Shown here in pieces: positions 4,663 through 63,534 of a stretch of 64,000 nt of DNA (positions are counted from its first letter, which is position 1; every line of letters begins with the position of its first letter). The stretch is from Schmidtea polychroa (lineage: Eukaryota). The position numbers and the translations under genes were made by a program. Location of the stretch: assembly GCA_044892525.1 (NCBI GenBank), contig CM097885.1, positions 17,114,001 to 17,178,000 of the forward strand, in the 5' to 3' direction. The notes below the pieces were generated by a model. That model worked only from the letters and a program-made list of their open reading frames with translations. It made no database searches and was not told the DNA's origin.

Positions 4663-5182
4663 ATTTGGTAAATAACACATAAGATCTTCAATAACATACC
4701 ATAATAAATATGGATTACTAATTCGAGGAATACAAAAAGTTATTGAAAAAAACTAATAACTTTGTACATACTTTCTTAGAGAGAAAAGGTCAAGTGGAGA
4801 AATGCAAAACATGTTCGAAACTGTTAAATCCACTGGTCAATCAACTAATGCACTTCATTCGCATCTAAGATCTTTAAATGCATCAAAGGGATTTTGATAG
4901 ATCTCGAAATCTTCAAATACAATTTGAAAAATCATTACAATTTACGGTCAAAATATTTACGATATAAAAGCAATCTCTCAGATTTAGTTTGCATAACTGC
5001 ATTTGATGCGTCAATGATTTAAAAAATTGGAAAACTAATTAAAACAGAACAGCTGGTCTTTTGCATACGCAATTCAATTAGTTATTTTATTTTAAGTGTG
5101 TTATACTGTAAAGATAAATATTATTGCTCGAGTCTACAATTTTCTTTTGATGATTCAACCGACAAGCGTGGAAGCAGAAATA

Positions 5183-5263
5183 GTACTGTTTACCAATAAA
5201 ATATGGTAATTCACCGCCAGATTGGCTACTACTATACATACTAATAATATCAGAATTTGCCAT
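5183..5263 (-). pseudogene. 5' fragment of a small Polinton ORF following the penton gene (QxGG-type core protein-like)
   Basis: The ATG overlaps the penton 3' end and reads MANSDIISMYSSSQSGGELPYFIGKQY, after which recognisable similarity stops. Confidence 0.45.
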
Positions 5264-6267
5264 CTACTTTACGAAAATGTAATGTCAAATGAGTTTTTGA
5301 ACCTTTTGGAAAGTTTATAAGTTTTCCACTATCATCACGAATATTTATTTCTATATTGTTTATACATGAACTTGCTATTGGTAAATACATGGGATTTTCT
5401 ACATTGATTTGTACAACTTCATCATGTTCATATTTTCCAATCCATACCGATTTCAAAAGAGGAACACTGGAATCACCAACAATTATGGGTTCGATAATGT
5501 TAGTATATATGAACATTTGTTGTTGATGTTCTAGTATTCTTGGTTTGTGTATACCAGTCGATTTTTCTCGATATTTTTGCTTATCTAATCCAAGTGAATT
5601 TGCCAAATTTTTATCAAATGTAACTTCGCAAATATCATCATTCAAACTGAAGGTAAACATCAAATCTTTCACAATCTCCAAATTTTTAAGTATGTGTGAA
5701 CAATTGAACTTTAAATATTTAAGTAATACATCAAGTTTATCAAAATATAATTCATCAGCAAAGGTAAATGATTCTTCAACTTCATCATTATATGATACAG
5801 ATATTTTGATTTCTTCTTTCACTATACTGTTTGCTTCAAATAGATTAAAACGTAATAAATACTCGGTCTCCGTAAAAATATTTTTCAACTTATTGCAACC
5901 CATTCGTTTGGCATCTTCAATAGTTTCGAATGTTATTGTAAATGGTTTAAAATCACAAGTGATATTTAATCCATCCTTGTAAAACATATAGCAATGCGAA
6001 TCTAATATTTGATTCGGAATATGTTTTATCATAATTACTGATAACAAAGATACCACTACATGTTTTCCCAATATTCCTTTTGAAATCAATCTTACATTGA
6101 CTATAAAATGGGAATGTATTGTACACGAATGTAAAATCTTGCAGTGCAACTTCCCAGTCACCATTTAAAGAAATCGGATTCTGGAGATTGACCATGAATT
6201 TACTGGCTTGATTGTCTGGATGAATTAATGGACAACTATTGCTCGGCAAAATAGTATAAAAATTCAC
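5250..6267 (-). pseudogene. Polinton/Maverick (adintovirus-like) minor capsid/penton protein, frameshifted
   Basis: N-terminal FYTILPSNS...NPISLNGDWEVAL (ORF 5953-6318) and C-terminal MFIYTNIIEPIIVGDSSVPLL...IEINIRDDSGKLINF...LTLHFRK (ORF 5250-6164) match Polinton penton motifs. Frameshift near 6000-6040. Confidence 0.8.
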
Positions 6268-6850
6268 TTTACTAGATCCTTTTCTGATATCCATAATGGG
6301 TTTTGATAACCATGCCATTTGACATAGTATTGTTTATCCTTGCCGACCTTTTTAGTTTTCAATATCTTCTGAATTCTAAATACTTTTGGGGGAGGAATGA
6401 CTTGTAATTCCTGCTCATAAAATTTCCCCTGTACAATATTATTATCATTATCTTTGATGACATACATTACAGGATTCTGTTTAGTATTTATTTTTGAAAT
6501 TACAAAAACTTCATCACTCCAATATGTATCAAAATTTTTAATAAATGGTGATGCACTAATTTTACTAATTCTAACATGGTCACCTACTTTATATTTAGGT
6601 TTTGCAATTTTTACAGATTTTTTAGAAGACAATGATGTTTGTGATGTAATATCAACCGGTCTCAATCCATTCAGTCCTCGATGTGATGAATGATTATAAC
6701 TTGTTATTATTTTCGGTAAAACATTTACCCATTTTTTATTACCTTGATTCACGAACAATTTCTTTAATCTATCTCTCAATGTTCGATTAAATCTTTCAGC
6801 ATGGGCAGCTTTGTATTGAGAATGTACCGAGTAGTGATTAGTCAAATTAA
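6264..6850 (-). pseudogene. Polinton/Maverick rve integrase C-terminal half with chromodomain (5'-truncated)
   Basis: AERFNRTL...YNHSSH, KYKVGDHVRISK, WSDEVF, GKFYEQELQ and chromodomain YYVKWHGY...WI. Confidence 0.9.
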
Positions 6851-7010
6851 ATGTATTAGTCATATTTGTTTTTCTCTTTATTAATTGCAACATAAATGCA
6901 AATGACATGCAAATTTAACAAAGAAAATTATGCCTATAACTATTGGGGAGGATGTTCTTGCTGCAGACGATGATACGCCCGAAGACTAATTCGATAAAAA
7001 TAATAATATT

Positions 7011-7068
<58 letters not shown>

Positions 7069-8661
7069 TTTATCTACGTCATTTTATAACGACTTCTATA
7101 TAGTAATATTTTATAATCATTTATTTATCAGGTTCCTTATATCCTCAATACTGTATTTCAGGAATTGAGTATAACTCCAAATGCCATACTCTAATGACAT
7201 TATATTATGGTCATTGATTCAATGGAATCGAGTATTTTTTTATGTTCCAAATGCAGGACTATTAACCCTATGACTTTTATAGAGTTTTATATTGGGCGCT
7301 CTATATATTTAAATCATTTTTCTTCAAATAAAAAACAGCTATTTAGGAAGATCTTTAATAGACAAACTCCAAATATAGTTCTTAATATCAAAAGGTCAGC
7401 TGAAAATAAAAATGATGTCGTCGCCACTGAAATTATTAAAAAGAAATTATAGTTATAAGTGATGATGAAGCTGGTGTGATAAATGTTTGTTCTCGTCGTT
7501 TACCAATTATTATTAATCAAATATTGACTTTCAATGTGATTTTTCTATAATTAAGCAAACAAAATAAAATTCATTATAATAAACATATGTATAACTAGAA
7601 ATGTATATTTATTTTTTTTTTTATTTATTTATACAAATTCATTAAAAAATTGATGATAAATTAATGATAAAGTAAAACCAGTCATTTTGGTCTGGTAGAC
7701 TGAATAATAAATTTGATTATCATTGTACTACGGTAACTTGCGCCTATACATTGATTTTGTGCCATTTTATATAACCATATAATAATATAGATTCCTACAT
7801 TAGTTCATTCTATTATTATTCTATAATTTATCTTATTATTGATTTATTCTATACATTATCCTACTCCACAATACTCAAAAATGATAATATAGAATTTTAT
7901 AATAAGATATTTATGATTATAATAATAATTAAAAAATTAAAATAGTCCACATAGAAGACATAATTATTGATTTAATAGTATGTTAAACATTTATATAATC
8001 ATCGTCAATGTTTTAAATTTGATTAATGGATAATGAAAATCAAATCTCATAATTAACACAGACGACATTTTTATCACAATTTGCAATCAAATTATATACG
8101 GTGATACGGTAACTAGTACACGGTGATACTAGTTCTGTGTTATCGAGATCTACCGCTGTTCTGGGATGACGAAAATCCACAAATGCACTTTTAGCCAATG
8201 CAGTAATTAAATCAAGTATTCCACATTAATAAAAAATCCATTTGATAGCTGATCATTGACAACTAATTTTGTTTAACGAACCTAGGGTCAACCCATAGTG
8301 AATTTTTTGGTAAAATGGTTAGGCGGGAAACGTTAATTACATTTTTAATTCGTATCGGTAAATAAATAACTTACAAGTAAATCAGTATATGAACAAAACT
8401 ATCCCTATTGCTGAGGAATCATTTACATCTTACATGATCGAATTTCAGTGTTTCGCGATCGGAACCCTGCCACACCCCTTCCAAGATAGATGCGAACAAC
8501 GTTAATAATTTTGCGTATATTAAATATATTTGAACAATATGATGTGTGATGAACGCGACAGATGAGCTGTAGTAGCGAGTTTTCGAGGGGTGAATTTGAG
8601 AGGTTAAGATGGACATTCTGATTTGGTTAAATATATATTTTCAGCATTTTTGCCATAACAA

Positions 8662-9369
8662 ATGACCGAACCAAGCCTTCCTCCGACCGGCCCGAGACCG
8701 TGCATCTCGTGCGCCGACAAAAATGTCCTTTTGAAGCAATCGGCCGACTATATAGGGTCATTGAAGCGAAAAATCGATACACTGGAGGGAACATGGTTCA
8801 CCCCTGCCAGCATGAAGGAGGCTCGAATGAAAATTCTACGGCTTTAACATTGCCGCAACAGCTTGCTGCAAGAGAGTCTGAGCCAGAGACTCACCATCAA
8901 GGCGCAATCGGCTGCCCTTCATCGCATATACTCGGCCGCTGACAAGGGAAATCTTTTTCCCACTCATCATGATTTGACTCTCCCAAAGCCTGCTCAATCT
9001 CCTTGTTGCGGTGCTCACGGCCCAACTCCGGTGTCTCCAATTCTCGCCGACATCGTCAAGGCCACTACGTCAGGAACTGCACCGCCAGTCACTAATTCAT
9101 CAAATCCTTCAACGTCGCAGTCAGTCGTTTTACCTAGTAAGCAGAAGAGGAAGAAACAGCTAACACGGGCCGAAAAGACGAAGAAACATCGAGGGGAGAT
9201 GGCAGCCCTCGAGGCGACTTTATTTGCAGCCACTCAGGCGAAGGGAGTAGCCTCAACCAATATCGCCGCATCCGTCAAAGTCGTGCCTGCCTCTGCCTCT
9301 CAACCACCTTTCGACCCTGCTTTGGAGTGTGACATCGATGCGATGTTAGCAGAGGGAGAAATGGCTTAG
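8662..9369 (+). pseudogene. Unknown coiled-coil/basic protein of the 'LEGTWF' family, one in-frame stop
   Basis: ORFs 8662-8847 and 8863-9369 are in the same frame, separated by TAA at 8845-8847. GC-rich. Homologous to 57983-58444. Putative acceptor tttcag at ~8644. Confidence 0.7.
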
Positions 9370-9960
9370 TAAATCTTCCAACTCCGAACGTCTTATCATC
9401 GCAACTCCTCCAGTAATATAACGCTCAGTATTATGGCAACCAACATTTAAATTATGTGATTCAATATAACTCCCCTGTGGAACTTGTATTTTCTCAATTG
9501 TTGTTTAATTTCTGTAACCTAAAATTGATTGTCTGACAATTATATAATTTAATTTGTTTTGCTGATTGTTAAAGTGTTGATTTGGTCGCCATAAGTACTT
9601 CGATGCAATGACATAGGTAGATGGAAGGACCTCACTTGGACCAGAGGCAGATTTTTGAATGATGTAAGTCCTTCTAAGGCCTTCCGGACCCGAACAGCGA
9701 ACAATGTGAGGAGTAGTTTTGGTAACAAAGCTCACCTTCTCACAGGTTCCAACCTCGGTGTACAGCACCAACATGACTTACCATCATGGGTACACAGGAG
9801 GGGATATTTTTCAACAAATCATTTGGGCATCTGGGATGAATAGACTACAATGGTAACCCCTAGTCGTACCAGTCGACAAATGTCCTCCCTATGTGACCAA
9901 CACATGTTAAACTGTAAATTTTGTTCGTGGCGATCATTGCTTTCTCAACTACCTCATGGA
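9345..9960 (-). pseudogene. Decayed unknown ORF convergent on the LEGTWF gene
   Basis: GC-elevated. ORF 9505-9774 continues past one stop as TTIEKIQVPQGSYIESHNLNV. Weak similarity to 57754-58000 (+). Confidence 0.35.
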
Positions 9961-10189
9961 TTATTATTTTAATTACCAAAATTTAATTTAATAAAAACTG
10001 CAAATGTAGCGCGAAGTCTATATTTCCGATTAGAAATTTCACTACCTTTCCCTTACATGGGCCTCATCGTTTCCTCATGATATTAAGTTATTTGCAATTA
10101 TTTGTTCCTATCTCGATTTTATTTCAGAAAAATATGTCTTTATCATTTAACTAATTGACTTAATCGGCCAAATTATTTATCGAAGTGAT

Positions 10190-10990
10190 GACATTATTTG
10201 TTTATATTGCAAACCGGACGTGCACTATAGTTGCATCGAAATCTCGCAAACGAGTAAACAGATTTACGTAAACCATTTAAGACTGTCCCCAGCGACTGAT
10301 GTAGTGGTATTCTAAATTCTAACTGTTTATCTGTGGATTTCATCGAAAACGTACTATGGCCGTTCGGGTAGATCCTATGGATCAAGACCAATCAATGACG
10401 TCCTGCCTGTGGATGTTTACAATAACAAATAGTGTAAATCTTTCAAACGGATGTCGTGAAATAGCGAGTATCGTCTTACTACGGAGAGCGGATGTTTCAA
10501 TACAGGCGACGAATTGATAGTCTAATATAATTCAGTGAGAATCTCGTATCGGTAGATCTAGACCGTCGAACGTGGAAAATTTGATCTGTCAGAATGAAAG
10601 AAAAATCGGACTCTTTAAGACGACAAACTCGCTATGAAGCTATCGAAAATTTCTCTTAATGTTAAGTTGTGCGGTTGCTGATGACTACGAGTTTTTAAGA
10701 TGGAATATAACGTCGTTATTTCATCCGCTAGATGGATTTTCATCACCACTGCATCGAAAGATTTGAAGTGTTTATTCTAGTTCTAGCCCTCGGATTGCGG
10801 TCTATCTCTATAACAAAAAGCTGCCACTCGATGAAAAAAATCAAATTATTAATCATGACACTTGGTCATCTCTAAATGGAAGTCGTAACTTTTGTCTCAC
10901 CATCTACGAAAATCATCTGGCGACTACTAACACAAGTGTCAGCAATCCCCAAACGACCCTCGTGAACAGGTCAACGTATATCTGTATATA
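10190..10990 (+). pseudogene. Decayed unknown coding sequence in the same GC-elevated island
   Basis: One frame is largely open with scattered stops (...DDYEFLRWNITSLFHPLDGFSSPLHRKI*SVY...). No family recognised. Confidence 0.3.
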
Positions 10991-11817
10991 GTTATGGTTG
11001 TGTATATTTGTCTATTTGAATTTTGTTTTTCATTTATTTTATTTTAGTGACTTGTTTTGTTCTATTTTATTATTTTTTCTCTCTATTATTCCTTATTCTC
11101 TCTACATTTGGTTGATTTCCTCAATTTATGTTAATACAGGGTTTTCTTTAATTAATTTATAGAAAGTTTAAATTTAAAACAATTTGATTACCACGGTTTC
11201 TAGCCCAACAATACTTAATAAAACATTAATTTTTCTTGTTTCACGGGGAACATTATTGTAAGAAAACCGTGCCGTTATTCAATATTAATTAAATACATGT
11301 TAAAACTCATTTCCTAGTGCTATGTAAACACGAGGTTGCAAAAAGTCGTAACATTAATGCATAGAAAGATTTTCCGTCAATAATTTAGAAAATCGCATAA
11401 AAATGTTTATCTTCATTATCCTTTATGCTCAATATTGTTCATTTTAGTGAAAATGATGAACGAATATTGCAAATTGTTTTTTTATTCTAAAAAATTTACA
11501 ATATAGAATTATTAAAATGTGTGAACATTTAAGAGTTTTCGAATTTCGTAAATTTTGTATTTTAATTTTAAAAATTTATTATTGTGATAGTATTTCATTT
11601 ATTGAACAAAGAAGGCTCTCCCATGATCTAGCTCATTATAAATAATTAACTGTTTAATTTTGTAAATAAATATATCACGTTGTCTCAGATACAGTAACCA
11701 TCAAATTAGCTAGCTCGCCAATGACAACGTATCAATAGTGAAAGAGCATTATCATTAAACAATTTTTCAGTCATCATATGGCTCATTCATAAACTCAATT
11801 GAAAATGTGTTAATTTT

Positions 11818-12450
11818 CCAGGGTTTGACGGTTTTCAAACCGGTTTTAAAAAATAATTTGAAGCATTCGAAAAACGGTTTAACACTTTCTATTTCAGCCT
11901 ATCAGGGGCCAAAAAAAAATTATTTTGCAGAAATATGTTGCCTAAATTAATATAAAATTTTGGTACAAATGAAACTCATTTTCCATTTTAAGTTTGGTAT
12001 ATGCATTTTTATATTTTTTAATATTTGTTATCCAATTACAAATCCAAGGACACTAAAATCTGAATTTTCATTATTTGAGGCGACGCATAAAAGAACGCCG
12101 AACTTTGATTTGTTATTTGACGCCCTAAAAACTATAAAACCAAGCTCAGAAGCCAGTGAACAAGTATTTCAATTTCAGGCAATATTGTGTGTAAAATAAG
12201 AACAAGACTTAGCGACCGTCCAGTAGATATTTTATGTTTTTTGAAATCCTATTTTCTTAGGAGAAATATTAATTAGTAAAATAAATAAAGGTTTTAATGA
12301 AAATTGTCTTTGTTGTTTAGACTTTTGTTACTTCGTTTGATAATGTGTAGATCATTTTTTGGCACTTTGATTTTGTTTTTCTTTTTATATATAATTTGAA
12401 ATAAATTATTTGTCCGTTTTCGTTTTATGGCAAAAATTCGAAAACCGGCT
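11818..12450 (+). mobile_element. hAT deletion derivative with transposase C-terminal (dimerisation) remnant
   Basis: CAGGGTTT terminus with AAACCG subterminal repeats. LKTIKPSSEASEQVF...RLSD...DILCFLKSYF. Right end unclear. Confidence 0.65.
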
Positions 12451-13556
12451 AAAATTTATTAAAAAAATAAAAAGTAGAGTAAAATTAAAATAATTAGATG
12501 AAAATGTTGTGGATTTACACAAAAATATTCATATTATTAAATATTGAAATGAAATGTACAATAGGGTGCTTTAATAGGCAGCAAAATAATAATTTTAAGC
12601 TTTTATTTCAAAACGTAACTATAACTAAATACTAGTTAAAAACTCGATTTATATTAGGATTATATTAATATCTAAAGTCGATTAAATAAAATAAAAATGT
12701 TATCTTAATTTTCAATGACAATTAGGAAAATGATTAATTAATATTAAAAACCATATTAATTTATTGTATTGGAATTACAGATATATTAATAGCAAAATCG
12801 ATGCTAAATTACTCGAAATTACTAATATCAAGTACAAAATTAATTTTTTCAATAAATATAATTTATATTACGATTATATTTCAATATTACGCATTTTAAA
12901 TGAATCTAACCTGCTCTATATTAAAAAGGTTGGAATTTAAAAGCCATTAGAATACTTTGAGAAATTAAATGACGGAAAAATTTAAACAAAGTTATAAAAT
13001 TATATATAACAAAAGTTTTCAATTTATTAATAATTTTCAAATATGACAATTTTTCATTAAAAACAATTAAGATAATATTTTTTTAATAAAATATTTTATT
13101 TTACATTTTGTTAAATTTTTAAAATTGTACTAAAAGAATTTTTTTAGAAAACTTACAAATTTGAGATATACAATTAATTTTCTCTTAAAATATATTTCAC
13201 TGTGTTATAAATTAATTATGCGTCTTAAAAATTATTTCAAATTATTCAATTCAATTACAGAGAAAAAATTTTAAACACTTTAACTTTAAAACTCTTAAAC
13301 AACGTCAAAGACAAACTGCTAATAAACTTTTATATAATAATTTGAACTCCTGTAACAAATAAAAGCCTATTATTCTTTAATATTTTTTCTCTAAGATTTT
13401 GAAATCATATCGGCAGTTAGTTGTGCAAGTGCAATAAAAAATGAGAATCTCAGTAAAAGCGAAAATATAATAACACAAAAATAAGGCCTCCTATTCTATA
13501 GTTAAATTATATTGGAAAAAAAAATTGTTGCCCTACGTAAAAGTGCGAAATACATT

Positions 13557-13656
13557 TTTTGATCGTTTGGTATAGATTCAAATAGTGTTATTTGGGGCCC
13601 CCTAAATTAAGAGGCCCATGCCAAAAGACCCTCATGACCCCTTCTTCCGGGGCCTG
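13557..13656. repeat. Dispersed ~100-bp repeat (probable hAT MITE end), second copy at ~18738-18838
   Basis: ttttgatcgtttggt...ttggggcccc...aaattaagaggcccatg occurs at both loci; this copy ends GGGCCTG. Confidence 0.6.
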
Positions 13657-13799
13657 CTTATCACTGCCTCTCTCGTCCCTTCATCGTTTTGTGATATACT
13701 CAATATCTTAGTTGTTATCGTCTACCTCGAACTTCTATGCTAAAAATTTCAACTCAAACGAGTAATAGTTCATATAATAATTTTGTTGCTTGATAATTA

Positions 13800-14445
13800 A
13801 ATTATTTTGTTTGTGAAAGGTAGTATAAAAACCAGGGAAACTAGTGGTTAATTGGCAATTAGTTGAAAAGGAAATTTAGAAGAGAATTATATATAAAATT
13901 TTCAAAAAGATAACGATGAAGTTTGTATTAGTCGATGAAATAAATTAAAGGTGTATCAGAAAAGCGGTTTACTCTTAGAAAGACCTATTTTAACACGTTT
14001 GCTTAAAATGCGGATAAAAGTAGAAAAATTCTTAACATTATTGTCAGAATTTGAGGTGAAATTAAATAACATCTATTGTATTGGGTATTATTGTTTTAAT
14101 TCAATTAAAGAGCACGTGTAGTCAGAATGTGGTACCGACTTTACAGTAATAGCCCAACAATATCAATCTGTGCACTGTATTAATTATTTTTAGTTCTCCA
14201 CTTCAATAAACACAATAAAGTTGTTGGGCTGTAAAGAAATGCATAAATAAATTTAAAATACTAAAATTCAAATGCAAAATTTTATAATTAAAAGTAAAGT
14301 TGATTAAACATTTGTTAAAATCAATAATTAATATTTTGCGGTAGGAAAGGTATGAGTGAGTTACTAATGAAATGCTAAGCATGAATATGTAGGTCCCAGT
14401 TAAAGATATTGCAAAGATAAAAACCAATTAATTAATTAATTAGTT
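13800..14445 (+). mobile_element. Two fragments of the TGTTGGG...CCCAACA gypsy LTR family
   Basis: A 3' part ends gtaccgactttaca...gCCCAACA at 14159. A 5' part starts TGTTGGGC at 14222. Both resemble the solo LTR at 31618-32463. Confidence 0.55.
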
Positions 14446-14481
14446 ATTCAAAATTATTTGTTGATAATCCCAAAAAGGTCA

Positions 14482-14899
14482 TGTGCAGTAGCATATGTTA
14501 TATTGAAACTTAATTAAATAGTTAGAATATCTTTATGGGAACCATTTTCGGTATTAGATCAAATATTACAGTTATCGGGAACCACTTGTTGCGAGATGAT
14601 CGACTTATTTGGACCAATAATCAAAATTATGTTGATTGTCTGGATTTGTCCAATAATTAGTTTCTATACTAAATGGTATTAAAGCAAAGACGAAAATGAG
14701 AAAAGACAAGGGATTTTAAAGATTCCAAGATATAGAGAAGCAAGAGAAAGAATGTAAAGGAGTCAGAGAAATTCTGAAGATGCCAGAAACTATATAAAGC
14801 CCGAAATGAGAGATCAGAAATCATGTAACGAATAGAAGAATAATTATTGTTAAATATTCAATAAAAAAATTTAGTCAGTGTAACTCAATTTATTGTACA
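14482..14899 (+). mobile_element. Possible LTR remnant
   Basis: TG...CA bounded segment with ctatataaagc TATA box and downstream AATAAA. No TSD confirmed. Confidence 0.3.
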
Positions 14900-16723
14900 A
14901 TTTTGTAATTTAGAAATTTAGAAGGTATCATAAAATGTAATTTTAAAAAAATAGTAAATTTAAAGTTAATTATTTTTAAATATTCAGAAAATGATTTAAA
15001 ATATTGATCGAAGTCACAAAAAGGAGAAAAAATTACTACAATCACATAAAATAAATTTCCCGAAATTATTTGTGAATAAAAGCATTTTAAAATATCTTAA
15101 ATATCTGTATTTAAACAGAAATTTAATAAATCATTCTGCTTTTGACAATTAATCATAAATTACCTGAAATTTATAATAAATACGAAATTTTAATTTCAAT
15201 AAAATAAATTATTTTAAACATTTAAAATAATGTATATTTAATGAAGAATATAACTTTTAATATACTATTTGCACATATGTTCTCTTGTCTAACTTTGGTG
15301 TAGATTAAAATTGTGCCAATAAATAAATTTTACTACATTGTTGGAAGATCATTATTGTCAGTAAAGCATTCATGGAATCAGATCAATAATTGTTAATATT
15401 TTTATTCTCCGAACAATTATAATTATCAGTTTTCATTTGTAAACATTGGCAATTCCGTGTCAAAATTTATTATAGCCAAATGCACAAAAATTGAACTTAT
15501 TTTATTTTTCAACAAAATTCCTTAACAATAAGTTGGATAAATCTTATTAGATTGAATAAATATATTTTATTTGAATATTGTTTGCGTGAAGTGAAGCGTA
15601 AAGCGTAAGTATCAAATGACGTTGAGAATAAAAGCACATTTAATATTTAGATTTGAGTCTTCGACTCAATATATCAATTTAGAGAGGCACTGTTCATCTA
15701 CAATTTGTTCTATGTGAGTGAATTCCGTTGAAAATTGATGTGAACGACATAAACATTGTGATTTGTTTCGCCATGTCTGCTTTCAATAAATTCCTTTAAC
15801 AATAATTTGTTTTTTTATTATGAATATGAATTATTTCCCTTTATAAATTCATCCTAATCCCGGGATACTTAAAAAATGACCACATTTTATAAATGAGTAA
15901 CAATTTGAAGATGCCTATAGTCGATCGTCGACGCGGAGAATGAATATAAATTACCACAGAAGCCAAAGTATAATTATTGATTTATTTGATTAATATATTC
16001 AATTGGAATTTTCCATAAATTTTAAGTTATAATAAATACTTAATTATTTTCATATTATAAATTATACAAACAAAGCTAAAACAATTTATATTCTAAATAA
16101 AATAAATTACATGTTGAATTTAGAAACGATATGCTAATACACAAAAAATACAATCCATCTTTATAATAAAATAATTTTAAAAAACTATTAAAATTTTTTA
16201 GTACTAAATTCAAGAATTTATTTAAGAATAAAATAACTATTTAAAAACATTTTTCAGGTGAAAAGAAGCTTATAAACTGAATGGCAAATTTAATATAAAA
16301 TCTGACATTTGGAAAATTGATTTCAAAATTTATGATATTATTTATCTAATTTTGGTATCGTTTTTATCAACCATATGCGTGAAAAGATGAAAAATATTCA
16401 GATATTTTGTACTTTTTATCAAGGTCATCAACATATACTGCTTTAAGTGGCTTAATCGTCGGGACATTTCTTACCCTAATCCAACCCTAGGTGGGAGGGG
16501 AAAGTTTTTTCATTAAAATTTGTTCTTATTTGGTTGAAATTAAATATTTGACATTTTAATAAACTATAATTGTATAATTACATTGTGTTTGAAATAAATA
16601 TATTCTTAAAAGTGTGTTTTGTATTCAAATGTATTTTAAAATCTTGCTTAAATGAATCATTATTGTATTTGAATTCGTTGGAATTAGTCGTTATAAATAA
16701 AATAAAATTTTTAATTTTTTAAA

Positions 16724-24039: not shown

Positions 24040-27240
<3,201 letters not shown>

Positions 27241-32784: not shown

Positions 32785-33651
<867 letters not shown>

Positions 33652-37629: not shown

Positions 37630-38441
37630 TTTTCGTCTAAAACAAATCAGAAGAATCTTTTTGTAATTGATCGTATCGCACGCTTTATTTTTACACAACC
37701 ATTGTTTATCAAACCATTTAATGTGTCCAATAACTTGAGATAGAGCCATGATTGAATTGGAAACATTGGATAATTGTTCAACACTTTGGCGAATAAACAT
37801 TTGAATTGAGTTGATCTTTTTAAGAGCGCGATTAAATAGAATATCATATTCATAAGTTAGCAAGTTTATCTTTTTATCGCTAATGTCATAAATGATTTCA
37901 GATAATTCACGAATATCTTTAAATTTTTGGGGAATTTTCATAAAAATATCTTGGAGTTCCTCTTCTGTCATTTCATGATTTACAGAAATTAAATCGTTGA
38001 TTTTCAATCGTTTTGATAAACTTCCATTAATAATCTTCGCTATATTGCTCATTGAAATATAACATATCAAACATTCACTATCTTCCCTATTTCATTTCAG
38101 AATACAAAAAATCTAAATCCGCAAGTTCGTTTAAAACAATTTCTCTTTCAGCAGAGAACAAATCAATTCATTTTTCCAGAATTCAAATCTGGCATAAAAA
38201 CTAATCTTTTAAACAAAGACTTCTTCGAACCAAAATAATAATCCATTTTAATCTACCATTCTAAAACTCAAATCAAAATTAAAACCTATCATATCAAAAA
38301 AACAACCTACTTCTCGCGTCTGTGTGCGCACATCAACAAGAAGCGTTTTAACCATACCGCGCACACAGACGCGATACAAAAACCACCAAACAAGCTGCCA
38401 GTCAGAGGTAAATGACATTCCCCCTCTGACTGGTCGAAACA
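37629..38441 (-). mobile_element. BEL/Pao-related LTR fragment plus unknown ORF, embedded in an (ATT)n array
   Basis: Starts TGTTTC at 38441 and carries the same 16-bp hairpin arms as the BEL LTRs at 55.5 and 56.6 kb. (ATT)n on both sides (37537-37628, 38442-38705). Confidence 0.6.
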
Positions 38442-55329: not shown

Positions 55330-57080
55330 TTAATCAATACTATCTAAAAATGTTTTATAAATTTATATATTAACGACTATATTAATTAATTAAAGAATTT
55401 TAATTTTTAAACCTGTACTACATAAAATATGTTTTATACATTTATTTATTAGTGTCTATACTATTTGATTATTTTATAAATTTATTCTTAGAAACAACCG
55501 AGCTTCCATTGCTCGCGTCTGTGTGCGCAAACCAACAATATTCGGTCTAACCAGACCGCGCACACAGACGCGATAGAAAAACTATGCCCAATCGGCTGAA
55601 ACATTTCCCCCCTCCTTGATCCCTTCCAGCGGATCAACAACCTCATTTAACTCTAGGGGGCAAACCTTGGTTATAGGTCTCAATAACTCTTTCCCCTTGC
55701 TGAGTATTTTCAATACTCGGATGTGTCCATCGTCGCCCGGACAGACGTCCACGACTCGCCCAAGCTTCCACACCTTACACAATCCATCCTCCAATAGCCA
55801 TATCAAATCTCCGGCCTTTAAATCTTTCCCATCCTTTGTCCATCTTTTCCGACCCCTCCACCCGATTACAATCTCTTGTCTCCATCGTCGCCAAAATTTC
55901 TCGCTTAGGTCTTGAATCAGCCTCCATCTCTTTTTCATCCCCGTTCCCATTAGTTCTGTCTCCTCCTTGATAAAACTCTTGTAGCCTGGCTTGATGAAAT
56001 GGTTTGGTGTCAACACTTCCTCTTCCTCTGGATCTTCACTAACCGTTGTCAACGGCCTACTGTTCACCATATCTTCCGCCTCCACAATGACAGTTTGTAA
56101 CTCCTCATCCGTCAATTCAGCAGCTCCAGCAACTGCTAATAACGCCTTATTTGCTTCTTTTACCAATATCTCGAAAACTCCTCCGAAGTGGGGTGCACTA
56201 GGCGGGTTGAAGATCCACTTTATCCTGTCATCCTTGAGACCACTTTGGATTGAATACGTATCAATCTCCACCTTCCCAATTTCGCTCGCTGCCCCAACAA
56301 AATTCGTCCCATTGTCCGACAATATTAACAAGGGGGTTCCGCGACGTGCAATGAATCTTTTGCATGCGCTAATAAAGCTCTCGGTATCCAGATGGTACGA
56401 CATCTCTAAATGCACCGAACTTTATCTAAAACCGAAAGCTGTTTAAAACTCTACCAAAAAATCCAATTTAAAACAAATCTAATTTAATAATCTAAATTTT
56501 CTACAATAAAACATTTTGGGTTTTGTTTGTTTAAAATGAGAACACAAATCAAACCTCTTACAAACAACCGAGCTTCCATTGCTCGCGTCTGTGTGCGCAC
56601 ACCAACAATATTCGGTCTAACCAGACCGCGCACACAGACGCGATAGAAAAACTATGCCCAATCGGCTGAAACATTTATATATTAGTGTCTATATTAATTG
56701 ATTAAAAATATTAATTATTAAACCTGCAACATCTAAAAAGACGTTTATAAATTTATATATATGTGTCTATTTGATTAATATTTGATAAATAAATATTAAA
56801 CCTGTACTGTCTAAAATTACGTTTTATGAATTTATATATTGACGTCTATATTAATTTGAATAATGCCGGTTAATTTGAAACCTATACTCACTAAAATTAT
56901 GTTTTATAAATTCGTGTATTAGTACCTGTACTATTTGGTTTAAAAACATTAATTGTTAAGACAGTAATATCTAAAAATGTTTTACAAAGTTATATATTAA
57001 TGCCTAGATTATTTGATTAATAAGTGTTAATTTTAAATCTGTGCTATCTGAAATACAGGGTTATATACATGTATATTAAT
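55330..57080. repeat. ~80-bp degenerate satellite split by the BEL element
   Basis: Units ttataaatttatatattag..tctat...aaacctgtact..ctaaaa..gtttt at 55330-55490 and 56674-57080. Confidence 0.7.
55492..56673 (-). mobile_element. Internally deleted BEL/Pao LTR retrotransposon
   Basis: Integrase ORF 55582-56415 (VHLE, FIARRG, SDNGTNFVGA, PPSAPHFGGVFE, VNSRPL, LTPNHF, FWRRW, WKLGRV, RPITKVCPL). PPT AAGGAGGGGGGAAA, then LTR TGTTTCAG at 55603. The same LTR start occurs at 56673. Confidence 0.93.
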
Positions 57081-57119: not shown

Positions 57120-57362
57120 AACCTTAGTATTCTTCTTTAAAACAATTTAATCCAACTTTTCGATATAATAGTTCATTCATCTAGATTCTAGTTTTTTCTT
57201 GTTCATATAATCTAGATTCGTAATGTTAATTTTGTTATTTTAAATATTTTCCAATGTTTTATTGATTTTTTTTCTTACTATAGCGATAGTTTACTATAGT
57301 AAACTATCACTATATAGTTTTTTTATACTTTTTATTTCCACCAATTAAAAAATGTAAAATGT
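57120..57362 (-). mobile_element. Gypsy LTR fragment with 36-bp palindrome
   Basis: Inverted copy of 57520-57590; palindrome at 57279-57314. Confidence 0.65.
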
Positions 57363-57500
57363 TGTAAAAAAAACAGAAACAAAATACATACAAAACACAA
57401 AAAAACATACAAAACATACAAAAAAATAAAAAAAAGTGTTGCAGAATGTTACCGTTCATGTAATTTTTATTTTTTATCGTTCATGTTAACCTCCGGTTTT

Positions 57501-57725
<225 letters not shown>

Positions 57726-57982
57726 TATATATAGCGGACTAAGAGCACTATAATTGTCGAGTACTCTATGGGTTCACGGACTACCGTTAGAAGGCATGTG
57801 TCCGATTTACTTCGGCCCCTTATCAAAATTGCCTTCCCAAACACTCCTATGTCAATCACATTATTATCAACAATCACAAGATTCAACCTCATACACATCA
57901 GATGGTGGTGATTATTTATTTAGTCAGCACAATTTTACAATATATGTTCTACCCCAGGAGGGTTCGCACACTCAATCACACC

Positions 57983-58444
57983 TCAAGATCGTGGAGCTGC
58001 CTCGGACTCTTTCAGCTTTTCGTGTTCGGCCAGCCAGGCCCTTTTCAATTTCTCTCGGGTATTCCGCCCTAGCCGTTTGCGTTTCGGCTTGCTTGCCTGG
58101 GCCGGTGGATATATCTTGGCCAGCTCCACGGGTAATGGGCGAATCTGCTCTTGGAGAGTGTCCTGAATGAACCTTTCGTTCAGCTTGACGTCGAGCGTGC
58201 GCACTTGTAACTTCAGTGCTCGTATTTCAATTTGATCCTGCTCCGCCTGGGTCTGGAGTTGCAAGATGTGTGCTGTTCGTTTTTTCATCTCGGCCGGGCT
58301 GAACCAAGTGCCCTCGAGTTCTCGGCACTTCACTTTGAGTTTCTCAACTCGGCCTCGGAGATCTTCGGCCTGCTCGCGGTCCTTGCGTAGATTTTCGAAT
58401 AATTTGAACACTGGAACATAAAGAAATTTATTATCCGCATCCAT
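57983..58444 (-). CDS. Unknown coiled-coil/basic protein of the 'LEGTWF' family (possibly a last exon)
   Basis: GC-rich open ORF; ELEGTWFSPAEMK..ILQLQ and SKPKRKRLGR match 8662-9369; acceptor-like ttccag at ~58411. Confidence 0.65.
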   Translation of the reverse strand: MDADNKFLYVPVFKLFENLRKDREQAEDLRGRVEKLKVKCRELEGTWFSPAEMKKRTAHILQLQTQAEQDQIEIRALKLQVRTLDVKLNERFIQDTLQEQIRPLPVELAKIYPPAQASKPKRKRLGRNTREKLKRAWLAEHEKLKESEAAPRS

Positions 58445-58689
58445 AAAAAAGGAAATTCATTTAATCGTATAGCAAGATCATTACTTAATGTCGGTCGCCT
58501 GACCACTAAGGTGTACTATAATCGCTAAAACCCACAACTTGACAACAAAATAATTTATTAGATGAGGTACAAAAGGAAAATTAAAACTAGCTAATTTATT
58601 GTATGAGATACAAAAGAAAAACTGGTTAAAACAAGTCAAATATCATTCGTCATAATACAAAGTGTAACTGAAAAAGGATCGTCAATAGT

Positions 58690-59051
58690 TCACACTGGGT
58701 ACTTGCGGGGCCTTACTCTCTTTCGCGGGGGCGCCTCGGCATCTTCCAACTCTTTCAAGGGCATTCCTTCCTTTTCGGTCCGGAGCTGGAGCTCAATCTT
58801 CTTCAGCCGCATTTGGACAGCTTCCACTTCGATGGCCGCTCGATCGTGGGCCTCCCGCAACAAGTCGTTTGTGAGTTCCGTCTTCACCCACGCCGGGCGT
58901 CGGGCTCTGGGCCACTACAGATAACCGGGCCGTAATTATCCAAGTCCAACCCTCGGTTCCAATCATGAATGCGGTACCAGATGTACCGGGTACGGAGCCG
59001 TGTGATCATCTGCCTGTATTCTTCTTCGTTGGAACCGCTTGCTTGAGACAT
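58690..59051 (-). pseudogene. Unknown GC-rich coiled-coil ORF with basic C-terminus, frameshifted
   Basis: MSQASGSNEEEYRQMITRLRTRYIWYRIHDW... then, in another frame, WVKTELTNDLLREAHDRAAIEVEAVQMRLKKIELQL...PPRKRVRPRKYPV*. Confidence 0.5.
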
Positions 59052-60299
59052 TCTGTTATTAAATGAGTATGGTTAATGATAATGGTCTTTTTAAAATTTC
59101 ATCTTTCCTATTGTTCGGCTAGGTCGTAAAACAGTGGTTCGAATAAATAGTTATCCTCTGATGGTGAGAGTGTTCCGTGTCGTAAGTTAGACAACAAATT
59201 TATAGCAAAAAGTTAGATAGTAATTTAATTATAATTACCCTATAACTTCAACCTGTAAACGTCAAAGGGAATCTTCCTAATACTACTTTTATTACAAATT
59301 TAGCAAACAAAAAATTTTTTGACCCTAAAATTTATATTTTGTTCGTGGTTGTCTTATCCAAATCGCTCGGATCTTTTAGTTTAACTTTTATTGAAAAACA
59401 TGAATTTGGTTGTTTTATTAATCCAAAATTATTATGTAATTATTTGTGTCATGGCGCATAATTTAATTACAATTGTATTTAAGATGAATTGTTATAATTC
59501 AACTTATATTATTTTAATATCATTAGCCTTAGAGAAAGATTTCGCTGGCGAACCGGTTTATTGTTTGAACTGTGTTCCAATACTCCTTAGTCGGCGAAGT
59601 CGTTCAAAGGGGCGTATTCTACTATTATATCTATAAAAATCTCTTTTTAAGCTTTCAGGTGTATGCCCTTTTAGTCAAGTTTCGGTATGAAAGTTGGTCA
59701 TATTTACAACCTGGCTCATATGAAAATTTTTATTTATGACGCCATCCTGCTTCTAATTCTTATCGGTATTTATGGTATTTTACTTTATGGAAATTTGGTA
59801 AGTTATTTATTAAATTATAAACCATACCAACTCATGTTTTGTATCGTCACCGTTAATTCTATAAGGAGCTTAGGGTATCATTTATCATTACATCTTCGAT
59901 GTAATTTTATAATTTATGTTTGAACGACATTATGTTTGGAATTCCTATTCCTGGGATCGATCATACTTTATGTTTTACAGAAAATCAGAGTCTCAAGTAA
60001 CTTTAAAAGCAGGCCACCGCTGGATCATCTTCTTCTGATGTAGTTATCTTCGAAATAATTTAACAATTGACTTTAATTTCCACAATCATTTTTGATAATT
60101 TAATAGTTGATATTATAAATATCTAAAACATTGTCGTATATTGAAATCTTAATATAAACTTATAATTTATAGTTTTATATTGTAATCCATGATTTAGGGG
60201 TAGTATAAATTTTGACGGCATTTTATGATGTACCTGCAGTTTTCAGGTTTATAATTTGCATTCCTATACATTATAATTTTGATATAGCTATTTATAATT

Positions 60300-60810
60300 T
60301 ATATTACGATAATCCAAGTCCATTCATAATTTATATATAACATTTTATAATTTATATTTTTATAACCAAAATTGATATATAACTATTTATAACCTGTATT
60401 TTTATAACCCACCTACATTTACAATTTATATATAACTAGTTACAACTTATATTTTATAATCAAATTAAGTTGATAATTTATATATAACTATCTATGATTT
60501 ATATTTTTATAATCAAAATTTATATATAACTATTTATAATTTGTATTTTTAGAATCAAGGTACATTTTATATAACTATTTATAATTTATATTTTTATAAT
60601 CAAAATTTATATATAACTATTTATAATTTGTATTTTTAGAATCAAGATACATTTATATATAACTATTTATAATTCATATTTTTGTAGTCAAAATTTGTCT
60701 ATAACTATTTATAGTTTATATTTTTATAACCAAAATTTTATATATAACTATTTATAGTTTGTATTTTATAATCCAGATACATTTATAATTTATATATAAC
60801 TATTTATAAT
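60300..60810. repeat. ~40-bp AT-rich tandem repeat
   Basis: tttatatataactatttataatttRtatttttataatcaa units. Confidence 0.85.
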
Positions 60811-61399
60811 TAATATTTTGATAATTCCGTTTGTTAATTCCGTTTGTCAGTATTGTGTGTTCAGTAGTGTGATTTGAATTTCCATAGAAAGTTACAGGTT
60901 CGCAGAGTTTATCGTATTTTGCCAGTAGTGTGGCTATTTCTGGTACGTGTTCAATAGTTTTGATAGTTGGTGTACTTGTTTGAATCACGCCGATGTCTAC
61001 TTTCGACAAGTTTGATGTTGTGTTCTTGGCTGTTTCTTTGTCTGTTTTGTTGTTTTCGACTATTTTCTTGTTTCGGCAGTCCACTATTAGGTTGTACTTT
61101 GCTAGGAAGTCGGCCCCGATTATTGACTGTTGTACTTCTGCGATTGTGAATGGCCAATTGTATTTTTTTGAATTTATTGTGAGTGTTATTGTATGTTGGC
61201 CAAATGTTTTAATTTTGGAGCCATTGGCAGCGGTTAGTGACTTTTCTGTAGTTTTTGCATTTTTGTATAAGTAGTGTGGTAATAGGGAGATCACGGAACC
61301 TGTGTCGATTAGAAAATCTGTATTGTTTGAATGCACCGTGAAAGTATTATTATTGTCACCAAATGTGGGTGCTATCAATGGTGACATTTTTAGTTTTCC
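60800..61399 (-). CDS. Ty3/gypsy pol N-terminus (aspartic protease), truncated before RT
   Basis: FLIDTGSVIS, LTAANGSKIKTFG, IIGADFL; in the -1 frame relative to gag. Confidence 0.9.
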   Translation of the reverse strand, partial: GKLKMSPLIAPTFGDNNNTFTVHSNNTDFLIDTGSVISLLPHYLYKNAKTTEKSLTAANGSKIKTFGQHTITLTINSKKYNWPFTIAEVQQSIIGADFLAKYNLIVDCRNKKIVENNKTDKETAKNTTSNLSKVDIGVIQTSTPTIKTIEHVPEIATLLAKYDKLCEPVTFYGNSNHTTEHTILTNGINKRNYQNINYK

Positions 61400-62664
61400 T
61401 GCTCTGTTTTGTGGAATTCGCAGGGTTTTATGCATTTATATGCTTTGTCGCCGAATTTGTTGTGAAAGTAGCAGTGGTTTTTTTTTAGGAAATCATTTCT
61501 TGAATTCCTTTCTGGGCTGCTGTTTCGGTAGTTGTTATATCGGTTTGGTGAGTTTGACCGGTTTCTGTAGTGGCCGTTTTGGGATTGTCTGTGGCTGTAG
61601 TTCTGTCTGTTGTTTCCGTTTGGTGGTCGGTCATAGTTTTGTCTGTTGTGATTATATGATAGTTGGTCTGTGTTGAAATTGTTTCTGTTGAATAGGTCTC
61701 TGTTTTCGTTTGGATTGAAATTTTGTCTGTTGTATTTCTCTTTTATTTCGGCTAGTTCCGCTTTTATTTGTCTGTTTTCGACAAATATTTCGTCGAATTT
61801 GTTGATCAGGGTGTTTATTAATCGGTTTGTTGTTTCATTTGTTTCGGTGTTTTTGTTGGTTGGTTGGTTGTTGTGATTAGTTTTATTTCTGTTGTAGTTT
61901 TGGGTACTGCAGATTGTGGGGTAGATTTCTTCGTTTATTTTATCCGCTATGTCAGCGATTGTTTCGACGTCAGCGTTACTGCTAGCGGCTAGGATTCGTC
62001 TAATTTCCGGTGGCATAGCGCGCATGAAGAATTCTTTCACCAATTCGTTGGAACCGGAGTTTGTTATGTTTGGTTGCAGATACTCCAGTTTTTGTTTCAA
62101 TTGTCGTAGGAAATCTATGGGCTTGTTGTCCCCTAACTGTGTATTGTTGAGGCATGGCTCAAGCATTTGCCTCCTGTTGACCTTGTCTTTGTTGGTCAAT
62201 ATGTTACAAAGTTTGGTAAAAGGGTCTTCGTCTTTTGATATTTCATCGATTTGATCGGCGATTTCGTTTAATTTGTTGCTTGGTAGTGCCGCTATTATGT
62301 TGGAGCATAGGGATTTTGTTGACTTGACTCCCGAAAGCGTTAGGGTTAGTTTCGCGAATTCTAACCATTTTTGCGGTGTTCCGTTGTCATCTGTGAAATA
62401 GTTGGGGATATTTGTTTTTGGGTTGATTATTGAATTAATGGTATGTGTGTTTTCTGGGTTGGTGTTTGGGTTGTAGTAGTAATTGGTGCTTTCAGGTGTT
62501 TGGGTATTATCGTAGTTGTTGGGTATTTGTGGAATGTTTGTTGGATTCGTTTGATTTGATGCCATTAATTGTTTTGTTGCTGTTTTTTTATTGCTTGTTG
62601 TGCAAAAAAAGGATATTTGTTTGTTTGAAGGATATGGCCCACTGTGTTCGGCCAACAGTGTCAC
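61390..62664 (-). CDS. Ty3/gypsy gag (DUF7041-like N-terminus, C-terminal CYFHxxFGxxAxxCxxPC knuckle)
   Basis: Open 424-codon ORF; LGDNKPIDFLRQL, FMRAMPPEIRRILA, IADKI. Likely start is MASNQ near 62564. Confidence 0.9.
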   Translation of the reverse strand: MTLLAEHSGPYPSNKQISFFCTTSNKKTATKQLMASNQTNPTNIPQIPNNYDNTQTPESTNYYYNPNTNPENTHTINSIINPKTNIPNYFTDDNGTPQKWLEFAKLTLTLSGVKSTKSLCSNIIAALPSNKLNEIADQIDEISKDEDPFTKLCNILTNKDKVNRRQMLEPCLNNTQLGDNKPIDFLRQLKQKLEYLQPNITNSGSNELVKEFFMRAMPPEIRRILAASSNADVETIADIADKINEEIYPTICSTQNYNRNKTNHNNQPTNKNTETNETTNRLINTLINKFDEIFVENRQIKAELAEIKEKYNRQNFNPNENRDLFNRNNFNTDQLSYNHNRQNYDRPPNGNNRQNYSHRQSQNGHYRNRSNSPNRYNNYRNSSPERNSRNDFLKKNHCYFHNKFGDKAYKCIKPCEFHKTEQEN

Positions 62665-62753
62665 TAGCCTTTATAGTTCTATAATAACTATACTGAAAGG
62701 TTTCGTGATTGAAAGAAAACGTCGAATGCGAGAGTCGTGTTGTGTTTGCTTTG

Positions 62754-62765
62754 CTTCTGACACCA
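62754..62765 (-). promoter_or_regulatory. Primer-binding site (tRNA-Leu-type)
   Basis: TGGTGTCAGAAG lies 2 nt after the LTR end ...TATAACA and is complementary to the 3' end of tRNA-Leu(CAA). Confidence 0.8.
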
Positions 62766-62767
62766 AT

Positions 62768-63534
62768 TGTTATATTAGTATGTTATTTGTTAGTTTCGTA
62801 GTTTTGTTATGTAATAAGAAAATTGATGTGCCCGAAAGAGTCTCCGTTAAAACTTGTGGCGGGATAATCGGGGTGCAGGCTGAGTTTTGTAATGTGACAA
62901 TAATAAGTAAAAAAAATAGAAATAATATGCAACAATAGTAATTATAGTATCACAACTTTTATTAAACAAAACAGAAATTAATACTACTTGGATCAACTAG
63001 TTATAGTAGGTACTAGGTAAAAGAATTTTCGGTTTATATTGAAACTTATATTTTCTGTATTAGGACTTCGATCTTTCGAACCTTCTTAATTAGAGAAATC
63101 TGAAATTTTATATTAGAACCTGAATCTCTCGAATCTTCTTAATTTGTGGCGAAATCTGGTTTTTCTATATTAGAATAAGAATCTTTTGAATCTTCTTAAT
63201 TGGAGTTGAAATCTGAATTTATATATTAGAATCAGAATCTTCTGTATCTTCCTAAATAGAGTTGGGATCCGAATTTTCTATATAAAAATCAGAATCTTTT
63301 GTATCTTCTTAGAGCGGAAATCCGAGGTTATCAAATTTTTTATTTAGCTTAATTCCTTAATTCAATTTCTTAATTCAATTTCTTTTTTCAATTTCTTTAT
63401 TCAATTACTTTCGATTTTTTTTATTTACTATAGCGATAATTTACTATAGTAAATTATCGCTATATAGTTTTTTTGTAAATCTGGATTCCTAATTGTGAAC
63501 ACTAAAATATTAATAAAAATAGCTGTACATTACA
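62768..63534 (-). mobile_element. Gypsy 5' LTR with 36-bp perfect palindrome and ~57-bp tandem repeats
   Basis: 3' end fixed by the PBS; 5' end tentatively TGTAATG at 63534. Palindrome 63429-63464, five repeats 63058-63328, AATAAAAG and GCACCCCGATTATCCCGCCAC. Confidence 0.75.

What the first reader, a model, noticed from the sequence alone, without database searches (positions are those of the whole stretch)
8662..9369. Unrecognised protein family (LEGTWF[ST]PAxMK) present twice, 49 kb apart, in GC-rich islands
Seen: 8662-9369 (+) reads LKRKIDTLEGTWFTPASMKEARMKILRL*...SKQKRKKQLTRAEKTK, and 57983-58444 (-) reads LKVKCRELEGTWFSPAEMKKRTAHILQLQ...SKPKRKRLGRNTREK. Both have a coiled coil broken by the same W-F-x-P motif, a Pro/Ser linker and a basic NLS-like patch. 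The TAA in copy A aligns with Gln in copy B. Similarity is at protein level only, so this is an old diversified family rather than a recent duplication. Inference: cargo of an undescribed large mobile element or endogenous virus. Copy A lies ~1.8 kb from the Polinton fragment.
Basis: partly seen in the sequence, partly recalled or inferred. Interest (0 to 1): 0.78.

Follow-up and report, generated by a model that had tools for sequence, protein, structure and literature searches.

The report
Unknown gene on abundant flatworm repeat
The two look-alike genes are decaying copies of an undescribed small protein carried by a very abundant repeated element in this flatworm-like genome, most likely an accessory regulator of a jumping gene, although which kind of jumping gene could not be shown.

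Summary
A (8662-9369, +, one stop at codon 62) and B (57983-58444, -, intact) share a 31-residue block around W-F-x-P (16/31 identical; 0 of 5000 shuffles). Two distinct outside relatives exist, and a profile built without A or B finds both. B is not one of two copies: 1267-1418 diverged contigs per DNA-type run lay on it, with depth peaks over B, over a second upstream ORF and over a short non-coding block. That block recurs at the colinear place behind A and forms a hairpin of like shape from different letters. B models as a parallel coiled-coil dimer with a basic tail. No known family matched. A Polinton link is not supported (GC3 0.53-0.71 against 0.23; Maverick promoter box in 0 of 3 ORFs). 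No transposase, RT, capsid or terminal repeat could be tied to the cassette, so the carrier's class is open. An LTR retrotransposon with Retand-like accessory genes is most likely (about 0.5).

The parts
8662..9369 (+). ORF A, 235 codons, broken by one in-frame stop at 8845-8847; diverged subfamily member
8752..8844 (+). Shared 31-residue block of A (coil end, W-F-x-P break, start of second coil)
9610..9758 (+). Non-coding block behind A: small hairpin loop near 9670 and a long hairpin at 9690-9758 with a 1x3 U/CAC internal loop
   Evidence: 9640-9760 folds at z -2.78 (1 of 200 shuffles), opposite strand z -0.25; family motif matches at 9730-9754; fold
57983..58444 (-). ORF B, 153 aa, intact: coil (4-46), W-F-S-P break, coil (50-101), linker, basic tail and helix (121-148)
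57915..57920 (-). AATAAA 63 nt behind the stop of B (candidate poly(A) signal; inference)
57734..57853 (-). Non-coding block behind B; most deeply covered part of the family (57722-57805); bulged hairpin 57777-57804 and the 5' arm of the long hairpin; cut off in this copy by the TA array
57586..57733 (.). (TA)73 microsatellite at which this copy ends; 33, 39, 43 and 11 contigs of the four runs go on with element sequence instead
58690..59051 (-). Second ORF of the cassette (about 120 codons; helical stretch plus C-terminal PPRKRVRPRK), broken by a frameshift near 58.9 kb in this copy; two AATAAA behind it; not shown to be a paralogue of B
59052..60240 (-). AT-rich upstream region, still repeated (depth 69-1554 in the three DNA-type runs from 59066 on), probably part of the same element
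60275..60824 (.). Degenerate 42-bp tandem array adjoining the upstream region; membership in the element not tested
10900..10980 (-). Very stable strand-specific hairpin (11 G-U among 35 pairs) 1.5 kb behind A; membership in the element unknown
   Evidence: 10885-10990 folds at z -6.87 (0 of 200), opposite strand z 0.58; pair counts

Best explanation
A and B are decaying insertions of two distant subfamilies of one abundant mobile element. The element carries a cassette of small, separately ended genes (in B: upstream ORF, then the W-F-x-P ORF, each followed by AATAAA) and, behind them, a conserved hairpin block. Shown: the family, its many diverged copies, conservation confined to the ORFs and the block, and the same block in the same orientation behind A and B. 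Modelled: a parallel in-register coiled-coil dimer over residues 15-95, interrupted at W-F-x-P, that presents two basic tails. Inferred: the carrier is an LTR retrotransposon (Gypsy-type, possibly Burro-like) and the cassette lies between pol and the 3' LTR, probably antisense to pol as in plant Retand elements. The protein would be a nuclear, non-enzymatic regulator of the element: it dimerises through the coil, binds nucleic acid through the paired basic tails and uses the invariant W-F-x-P surface to dock a partner. My ranking of its job, given an LTR carrier: binding the element's own hairpin RNA to export, stabilise or translate it (Rev/CERV-like) about 0.35; transcriptional control (HBZ/TRP28-like) about 0.3; decoy against host silencing about 0.25; other about 0.1.
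For: Family: 2 of 1.84 billion representatives pass E 0.001; P0003 is 39% identical to B over 142 aa and the C-terminal part of P0004 33% over 110 aa; a profile lacking both window ORFs ranks B (E 1.6e-29) and A (E 3.9e-4) first and second, next hit E 0.06. Repeat nature: 1267, 1388 and 1418 contigs laid in runs X1, X4, X5, in X1 908 of 1267 under 95% alike; X1 summed depth 5408-15749 over B, 4813-7711 over most of the upstream ORF and 43550 over the block, against 81-923 in spacer bins and 16-37 for contigs identical to this locus; single contigs fit block and B (57807/58097) and B and upstream ORF (58325/58895, 58412/58877). Block: a 25-nt family motif that lies beyond B's truncation, so was not used to find the similarity, matches A at 9730-9754 (16/25; 7 of about 128,000 positions reach 16), 1 nt from the colinear prediction. 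The two B-family arms pair at -17.8 kcal/mol (0 of 2000 shuffles; 13 of 18280 window 24-mers); both hairpins carry U-AGU...GCU-CAC at the same place with otherwise different stems; read by eye, the length variants among the loose ends fall in the apical loop. Dimer: score 0.54, best of 3 controls 0.00; that mark was reached by 21 of 30 proteins solved as pairs of one chain and 0 of 23 solved as single chains; runs agree in at least 81% of contacts, pLDDT at least 70. Basic tails: 8-9 K/R in 15 residues and net charge +10 to +16 in A, B, P0003 and the whole P0004. For an LTR carrier: on the strand opposite to the ORFs both subfamilies end a frame at a TGA at the same place, A's ending in G-K-x7-R-L-E-P, which recalls an integrase C-end (2 hits of that pattern in six frames of the window; pattern recalled and chosen after seeing the site); a tandem array adjoins; antisense ORFs plus tandem arrays mark the pol-3'LTR region of Retand (PMC11963269, passages); Burro elements have thousands of copies and accessory ORFs (PMC6431247, section 7).
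Against: No hallmark gene or terminal repeat is tied to either island: Pfam gave nothing significant on 18 six-frame read-throughs of the flanks or on 14 and 5 shorter pieces, nor did PDB sequences; the self-comparison of the window shows no LTR pair around A or B. The integrase-end reading rests on a recalled motif. The neighbouring CHCC-type Gypsy differs in composition (GC3 0.33-0.36, GC skew about -0.3, against GC3 0.58-0.71 and skew 0.03-0.10), and its LTR region does not match the block (68 and 140 of 300 shuffles). Most hairpin evidence favours the ORF-sense strand (one loose-end variant favours the other), which fits an antisense-to-pol model only if the hairpin acts in the cassette's own RNA. 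A has no AATAAA in the 400 nt behind its stop. The direct A-vs-B DNA alignment is marginal. The dimer mark was calibrated on microbes; in animals 7 of 16 known pairs reached it and only 1 of 7 eukaryotic pairs without an older solved relative, so a generic coiled-coil pass is possible; trimers were not tested. Depth of contigs is no copy number (tool's own warning), and only B was laid. Expression, localisation and binding are untested.
Confidence: 0.5

Rival explanations
1. The cassette belongs to a non-LTR, Penelope-like or tyrosine-recombinase (DIRS/Ngaro) retroelement; the protein is an ORF1-like coiled-coil RNA chaperone and the hairpin block is the signal read by the element's RT or recombinase.
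For: Coiled coil plus basic tail is the usual ORF1 build (recalled); the block is the most repeated part and ends at a TA array in this copy; coiled-coil ORFs are shared between LTR and Penelope-like elements in rotifers (PMC5408684, passages).
Against: No RT, endonuclease or YR in the flanks; no Rfam ribozyme at gathering score in the window or at E up to 10 in either island; other copies run on past the TA array; a YR-like end seen by eye behind B is interrupted by stops in loose-end variants (read by eye).
Confidence: 0.17
2. The ORFs are accessory genes of a Maverick/Polinton or of another integrated DNA virus; the hairpins are terminators or terminal structures.
For: Small monocistronic ORFs with their own AATAAA; a Maverick fragment lies 1.75 kb from A; Mavericks are abundant in planarian genomes (10.64898/2025.12.11.693146, passages).
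Against: Maverick genes in the window have GC 0.29 and GC3 0.23, against 0.52-0.60 and 0.53-0.71; the ATAAAC box is at -19 of the Maverick ORF that precedes the capsid-like frame but in 0 of 3 cassette ORFs; an (AAT)n tract and 1.1 kb of 13-27% GC DNA separate A's island from the fragment; no relative in viral contigs, PHROGs or BFVD.
Confidence: 0.14
3. An amplified host gene family, or a domesticated exon: P0004 joins the domain to a parvin-like calponin-homology half.
For: P0004 carries CH (E 1e-9) N-terminal to the domain; Atlas look-alikes of P0003 are eukaryotic coiled-coil proteins (best 0.95, 157 of 256 features).
Against: No intron is seen in either ORF; both loci are broken (stop in A, frameshift in B's neighbour) and sit among TE debris; hundreds of diverged contigs; P0004 is a singleton and may be a gene model that spliced an intronic insertion; the Atlas hits share fewer than 170 features and gave nothing above 0.90 for B itself.
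Confidence: 0.08
4. Cargo of a DNA transposon of another kind (Helitron-like or a two-gene cut-and-paste element), the hairpin block being its end.
For: Conserved hairpin at one side and high copy number.
Against: No transposase or Rep/helicase in the flanks; the CTATAG-type inverted repeats nearby (57292-57592, 63428-63474) pair among themselves as separate MITE-like elements.
Confidence: 0.08

Closest known systems
Retand/Grande plant Gypsy elements: antisense accessory ORFs (TRP28) and tandem arrays between pol and the 3' LTR (PMC11963269, passages)
   Same: Small conserved ORFs of unknown function, probably nucleic-acid binding, in a high-copy element, beside a tandem array.
   Different: Animal host; no TRP28 (PF04195) match; position relative to pol not shown; a conserved hairpin block accompanies the ORF.
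Burro/GYPSM1 giant Gypsy-like elements of planarians (PMC6431247, section 7 read whole)
   Same: Host group (by earlier notes), very many copies, accessory ORFs and tandem repeats.
   Different: None of the domains named for Burro was matched here; no Burro sequence was available for comparison; the review names no W-F-x-P protein in that section.
CERV of C. elegans Cer1 and retroviral Rev-type export proteins (PMC10309623, abstract and passages)
   Same: Element-encoded oligomeric protein with coiled coils, proposed nuclear; Rev binds a structured region of its own RNA.
   Different: CERV is made from a spliced mRNA and has a Rossmann-type G domain; B is 153 aa and all-helical; no sequence match was tested or found; function here is inferred only.
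Coiled-coil (CC) ORF3 of bdelloid LTR retrotransposons and Terminons (PMC5408684, passages)
   Same: Short coiled-coil accessory ORFs in invertebrate retroelements.
   Different: Those ORF3s lie sense and downstream of pol and are described as spliced; no sequence comparison was possible.

Membership tests
Dispersed mobile-element repeat (any class) | Many diverged copies in the genome | tested here: met
   1267-1418 contigs per DNA-type run on B's 2.5 kb, most under 95% alike; two subfamilies in one window
Dispersed mobile-element repeat (any class) | Defined ends and target-site duplication | tested here: inconclusive
   B is cut by a TA array at one side and runs into a tandem array at the other; no genome held
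Gypsy/Burro LTR retrotransposon | Linked gag-pol (RT, RNase H, integrase) | tested here: inconclusive
   No Pfam or PDB hit in flanks; integrase-like C-end by recalled motif only; adjacent gag-pro at 60800-62670 differs in composition
Gypsy/Burro LTR retrotransposon | Pair of LTRs with PBS and PPT around the cassette | tested here: inconclusive
   No direct repeat pair around A or B; both copies are fragments
Retand-type antisense accessory ORF | TRP28 domain | tested here: not met
Retand-type antisense accessory ORF | Antisense to pol in the pol-3'LTR interval | tested here: inconclusive
   Opposite-strand frames end at the same place in both subfamilies, but pol is not identified
Maverick/Polinton of this genome | Composition like the element's genes and ATAAAC box before the ORF | tested here: not met
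   GC3 0.53-0.71 vs 0.23; box in 0 of 3 cassette ORFs, 1 of 1 Maverick ORF
Maverick/Polinton of this genome | Linkage to pPolB, integrase, capsids between TIRs | not testable with these tools
   No whole genome; proximity holds for A only
Penelope-like or R2/NeSL-like retroelement | Hammerhead or HDV-like ribozyme in the flanks | tested here: not met
   Rfam
DIRS/Ngaro | Tyrosine recombinase and split or inverted terminal repeats | tested here: inconclusive
   No Pfam hit in the flanks scanned; fragments only
Rev/CERV-like export factor | Binds the element's structured RNA and is needed for its export | not testable with these tools
   Only anatomy: basic tail, dimer model, adjacent hairpins

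The most novel reading that the evidence does not exclude
A planarian retrotransposon lineage carries its own two-part RNA control module: a new dimeric coiled-coil protein with paired basic tails, and a hairpin with a fixed U/CAC internal loop whose shape has been kept between subfamilies whose proteins now align only over 31 residues. This would be an independently evolved Rev/RRE-like switch in one of the most abundant repeats of the genome.
Probability: 0.18. Interest if true: 0.75.

Novelty: new variant of a known kind. Interest (0 to 1): 0.45.

Why it matters
Accessory genes of animal retrotransposons are seldom characterised, and few have an assigned partner RNA. Here a protein family unknown to the libraries searched comes with a conserved neighbouring RNA structure, in a repeat abundant enough for many natural variants, so selection, covariation and binding can be tested directly in a host open to RNAi. 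It also warns annotators: the ORF is probably being spliced into host gene models (P0004). If the carrier turns out to be an ordinary catalogued Gypsy family, the result is a useful annotation of its unexplained ORFs rather than a new system.

Full report
Setting. The window is AT-rich animal DNA with a KLF-type zinc-finger gene and fragments of Maverick, Gypsy, BEL/Pao and DNA transposons. Earlier notes on the same genome call it planarian-like (unchecked). No whole genome was held, so copy number and linkage rest on public contigs laid on one island.

Observation. A (8662-9369, +) has one stop at codon 62 and B (57983-58444, -) is an intact 153-aa ORF. They align over 31 residues (16 identical, E 4e-7; score 77, 0 of 5000 shuffles). 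Both are GC-rich (0.53, 0.52; GC3 0.53, 0.58) in a background near 0.25.

The family. A profile of B and A's N-terminal part found 2 proteins among 1.84 billion representatives: P0003 (157 aa, ENA, with one close variant P0005 on contigs of 638 and 549 nt) and residues 264-387 of P0004, a singleton gene model whose N-half is a parvin-like CH domain. B is 39% identical to P0003 over 142 aa and 33% to P0004 over 110 aa. A profile made from the outside proteins alone ranks B and A first and second in the six frames of the window. E44, W47, F48, P50, M53, I60 and L63 of B are invariant in the five rows. No known family, solved sequence or fold matched, and no relative appeared in viral, metagenome or prokaryote contigs.

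Copy number and cassette. Laying four runs on 57722-60240 placed 1267, 1388, 1418 and 277 contigs, mostly under 95% alike. In run X1, summed depth is 5408-15749 over B, 4813-7711 over most of an upstream ORF (58690-59051) and 43550 over 57722-57805, but 81-923 in spacer bins; contigs identical to this locus have depth 16-37. Depth is not a copy number, but the pattern means hundreds of diverged copies or more, with similarity confined to two ORFs and one short non-coding block. Single contigs fit block and B, or B and the upstream ORF, so the order is shared by other copies. The upstream ORF is broken here by a frameshift near 58.9 kb; a gap-free identical contig shows that the break is in the organism's DNA, and most related copies differ at that place. 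Both B-side ORFs are followed by AATAAA. This copy ends at a (TA)73 array, where other copies continue.

The block behind both ORFs. A plain DNA alignment of the regions behind A and B is marginal. A stronger test used 25 nt that other copies carry beyond B's truncation: they match A at 9730-9754 with 16 of 25 letters, a level reached by 7 of about 128,000 window positions, 1 nt from the place predicted from a shared 8-nt anchor. There A folds into a long hairpin on the ORF-sense strand (z -2.78, 1 of 200; opposite strand z -0.25). The two arms of the B family pair as well (-17.8 kcal/mol, 0 of 2000 shuffles on the ORF-sense strand; -17.1, 5 of 2000 on the other). The stems differ in letters but both have a U/CAC internal loop closed by AGU:GCU, and the length variants among loose ends fall in the apical loop (by eye). 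A smaller hairpin with a UUCUAA loop precedes it (z -1.85 in B; not stable on its own in A). Rfam knows none of this. So A and B are homologous segments of one kind of element, not merely two genes.

The protein. AlphaFold2 on four sequences gives helix 4-46, a break at W-F-S-P, helix 50-101 and a basic helix 127-148 (pLDDT 75.9, pTM 0.32). Two copies of B model as a parallel in-register coiled coil over residues 15-95 (score 0.54, best of 3 controls 0.00; mark reached by 21 of 30 known pairs and 0 of 23 single chains, but by 7 of 16 animal pairs and 1 of 7 eukaryotic pairs without an older relative; at least 81% contact agreement, pLDDT at least 70). All members have a tail with 8-9 K/R in 15 residues. 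This is the build of a non-enzymatic dimer with two nucleic-acid-binding or nuclear-import tails (inference).

Which element. Not settled. Against the Polinton: GC3 0.23 in the Maverick genes, and the ATAAAC box present before a Maverick ORF but before 0 of 3 cassette ORFs. For an LTR retrotransposon: on the opposite strand both subfamilies end a frame at the same TGA just beyond the block, and A's ends like an integrase C-terminus (recalled pattern, post hoc); a tandem array adjoins B's upstream region; plant Retand elements have this layout (PMC11963269, passages) and planarian Burro elements have thousands of copies and accessory ORFs (PMC6431247, section 7). Against: no RT, integrase, LTR or other hallmark is detectable in the flanks, and the adjacent CHCC-type Gypsy (label recalled from its gag motif) differs in composition.

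Mechanism. Most likely an accessory regulator of the element. The nearest working model is a dimeric basic protein that binds the element's own structured RNA, as Rev does and as CERV serves Cer1 export (PMC10309623, abstract and passages); transcriptional control or a decoy against host silencing are close rivals. None of these steps was tested.

Novelty. The searches named under Tried and rejected showed no description of this protein family, but Repbase, planarian repeat libraries, the Burro primary paper and all supplements were unseen, so the element's DNA may be catalogued. Papers seen: PMC6431247 (passages and section 7), PMC11410931, PMC8532177, PMC11963269, PMC5408684 and 10.64898/2025.12.11.693146 (passages), PMC10309623 (abstract, passages); the rest as search listings only. 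Verdict: real, a new variant of a known kind (accessory genes of a mobile element), interest 0.45.

Noticed in passing
window 10900-10980 (-): Very stable hairpin of 35 pairs, 11 of them G-U, that folds on one strand only (z -6.87 vs 0.58); no Rfam match. Could be a pre-miRNA, a retroelement leader structure or an edited inverted repeat.
   Followed up: partly
window 10323-10988 (+): Decayed frame with few stops; ankyrin-like and USP-like stretches by eye, no Pfam hit, best PDB hit USP39 at E 1.
   Followed up: partly
window 60800-62955 (-): Gypsy element with PBS near 62765, gag ending in a C-x2-H-x9-C-x3-C knuckle (DUF7041 weak hit), protease, cut off near the start of RT by a 42-bp tandem array; a 38-nt piece of its upstream region is repeated at 63591-63628.
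   Followed up: partly
window 55486-56676 (-): Internally deleted BEL/Pao element with 121-bp direct repeats (98% alike) and an integrase/DUF5641 remnant, inserted in an AT-rich 78-bp tandem array; a related 71-bp piece at 38313-38383.
   Followed up: partly
window 57292-57592, 63428-63474, 4106: MITE-like elements with CTATAG-based palindromic ends.
   Followed up: no
window 5250-6914 (-): Maverick fragment: integrase end with chromodomain, followed by a frameshifted capsid-like gene (label by recall; no Pfam hit) with ATAAAC at -19.
   Followed up: partly
window 32785-33651 (+): KLF/Sp-type three-finger C2H2 gene exon, probably a host gene.
   Followed up: no
window 24562-27050 (+): Decayed Gypsy element: CCHC gag, protease-like frame and RT pieces, no integrase seen up to 27720.
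   Followed up: partly
P0004: Public gene model that joins a parvin-like CH half to this family's domain; probably an intronic insertion spliced in by prediction, but a real fusion is not excluded.
   Followed up: partly
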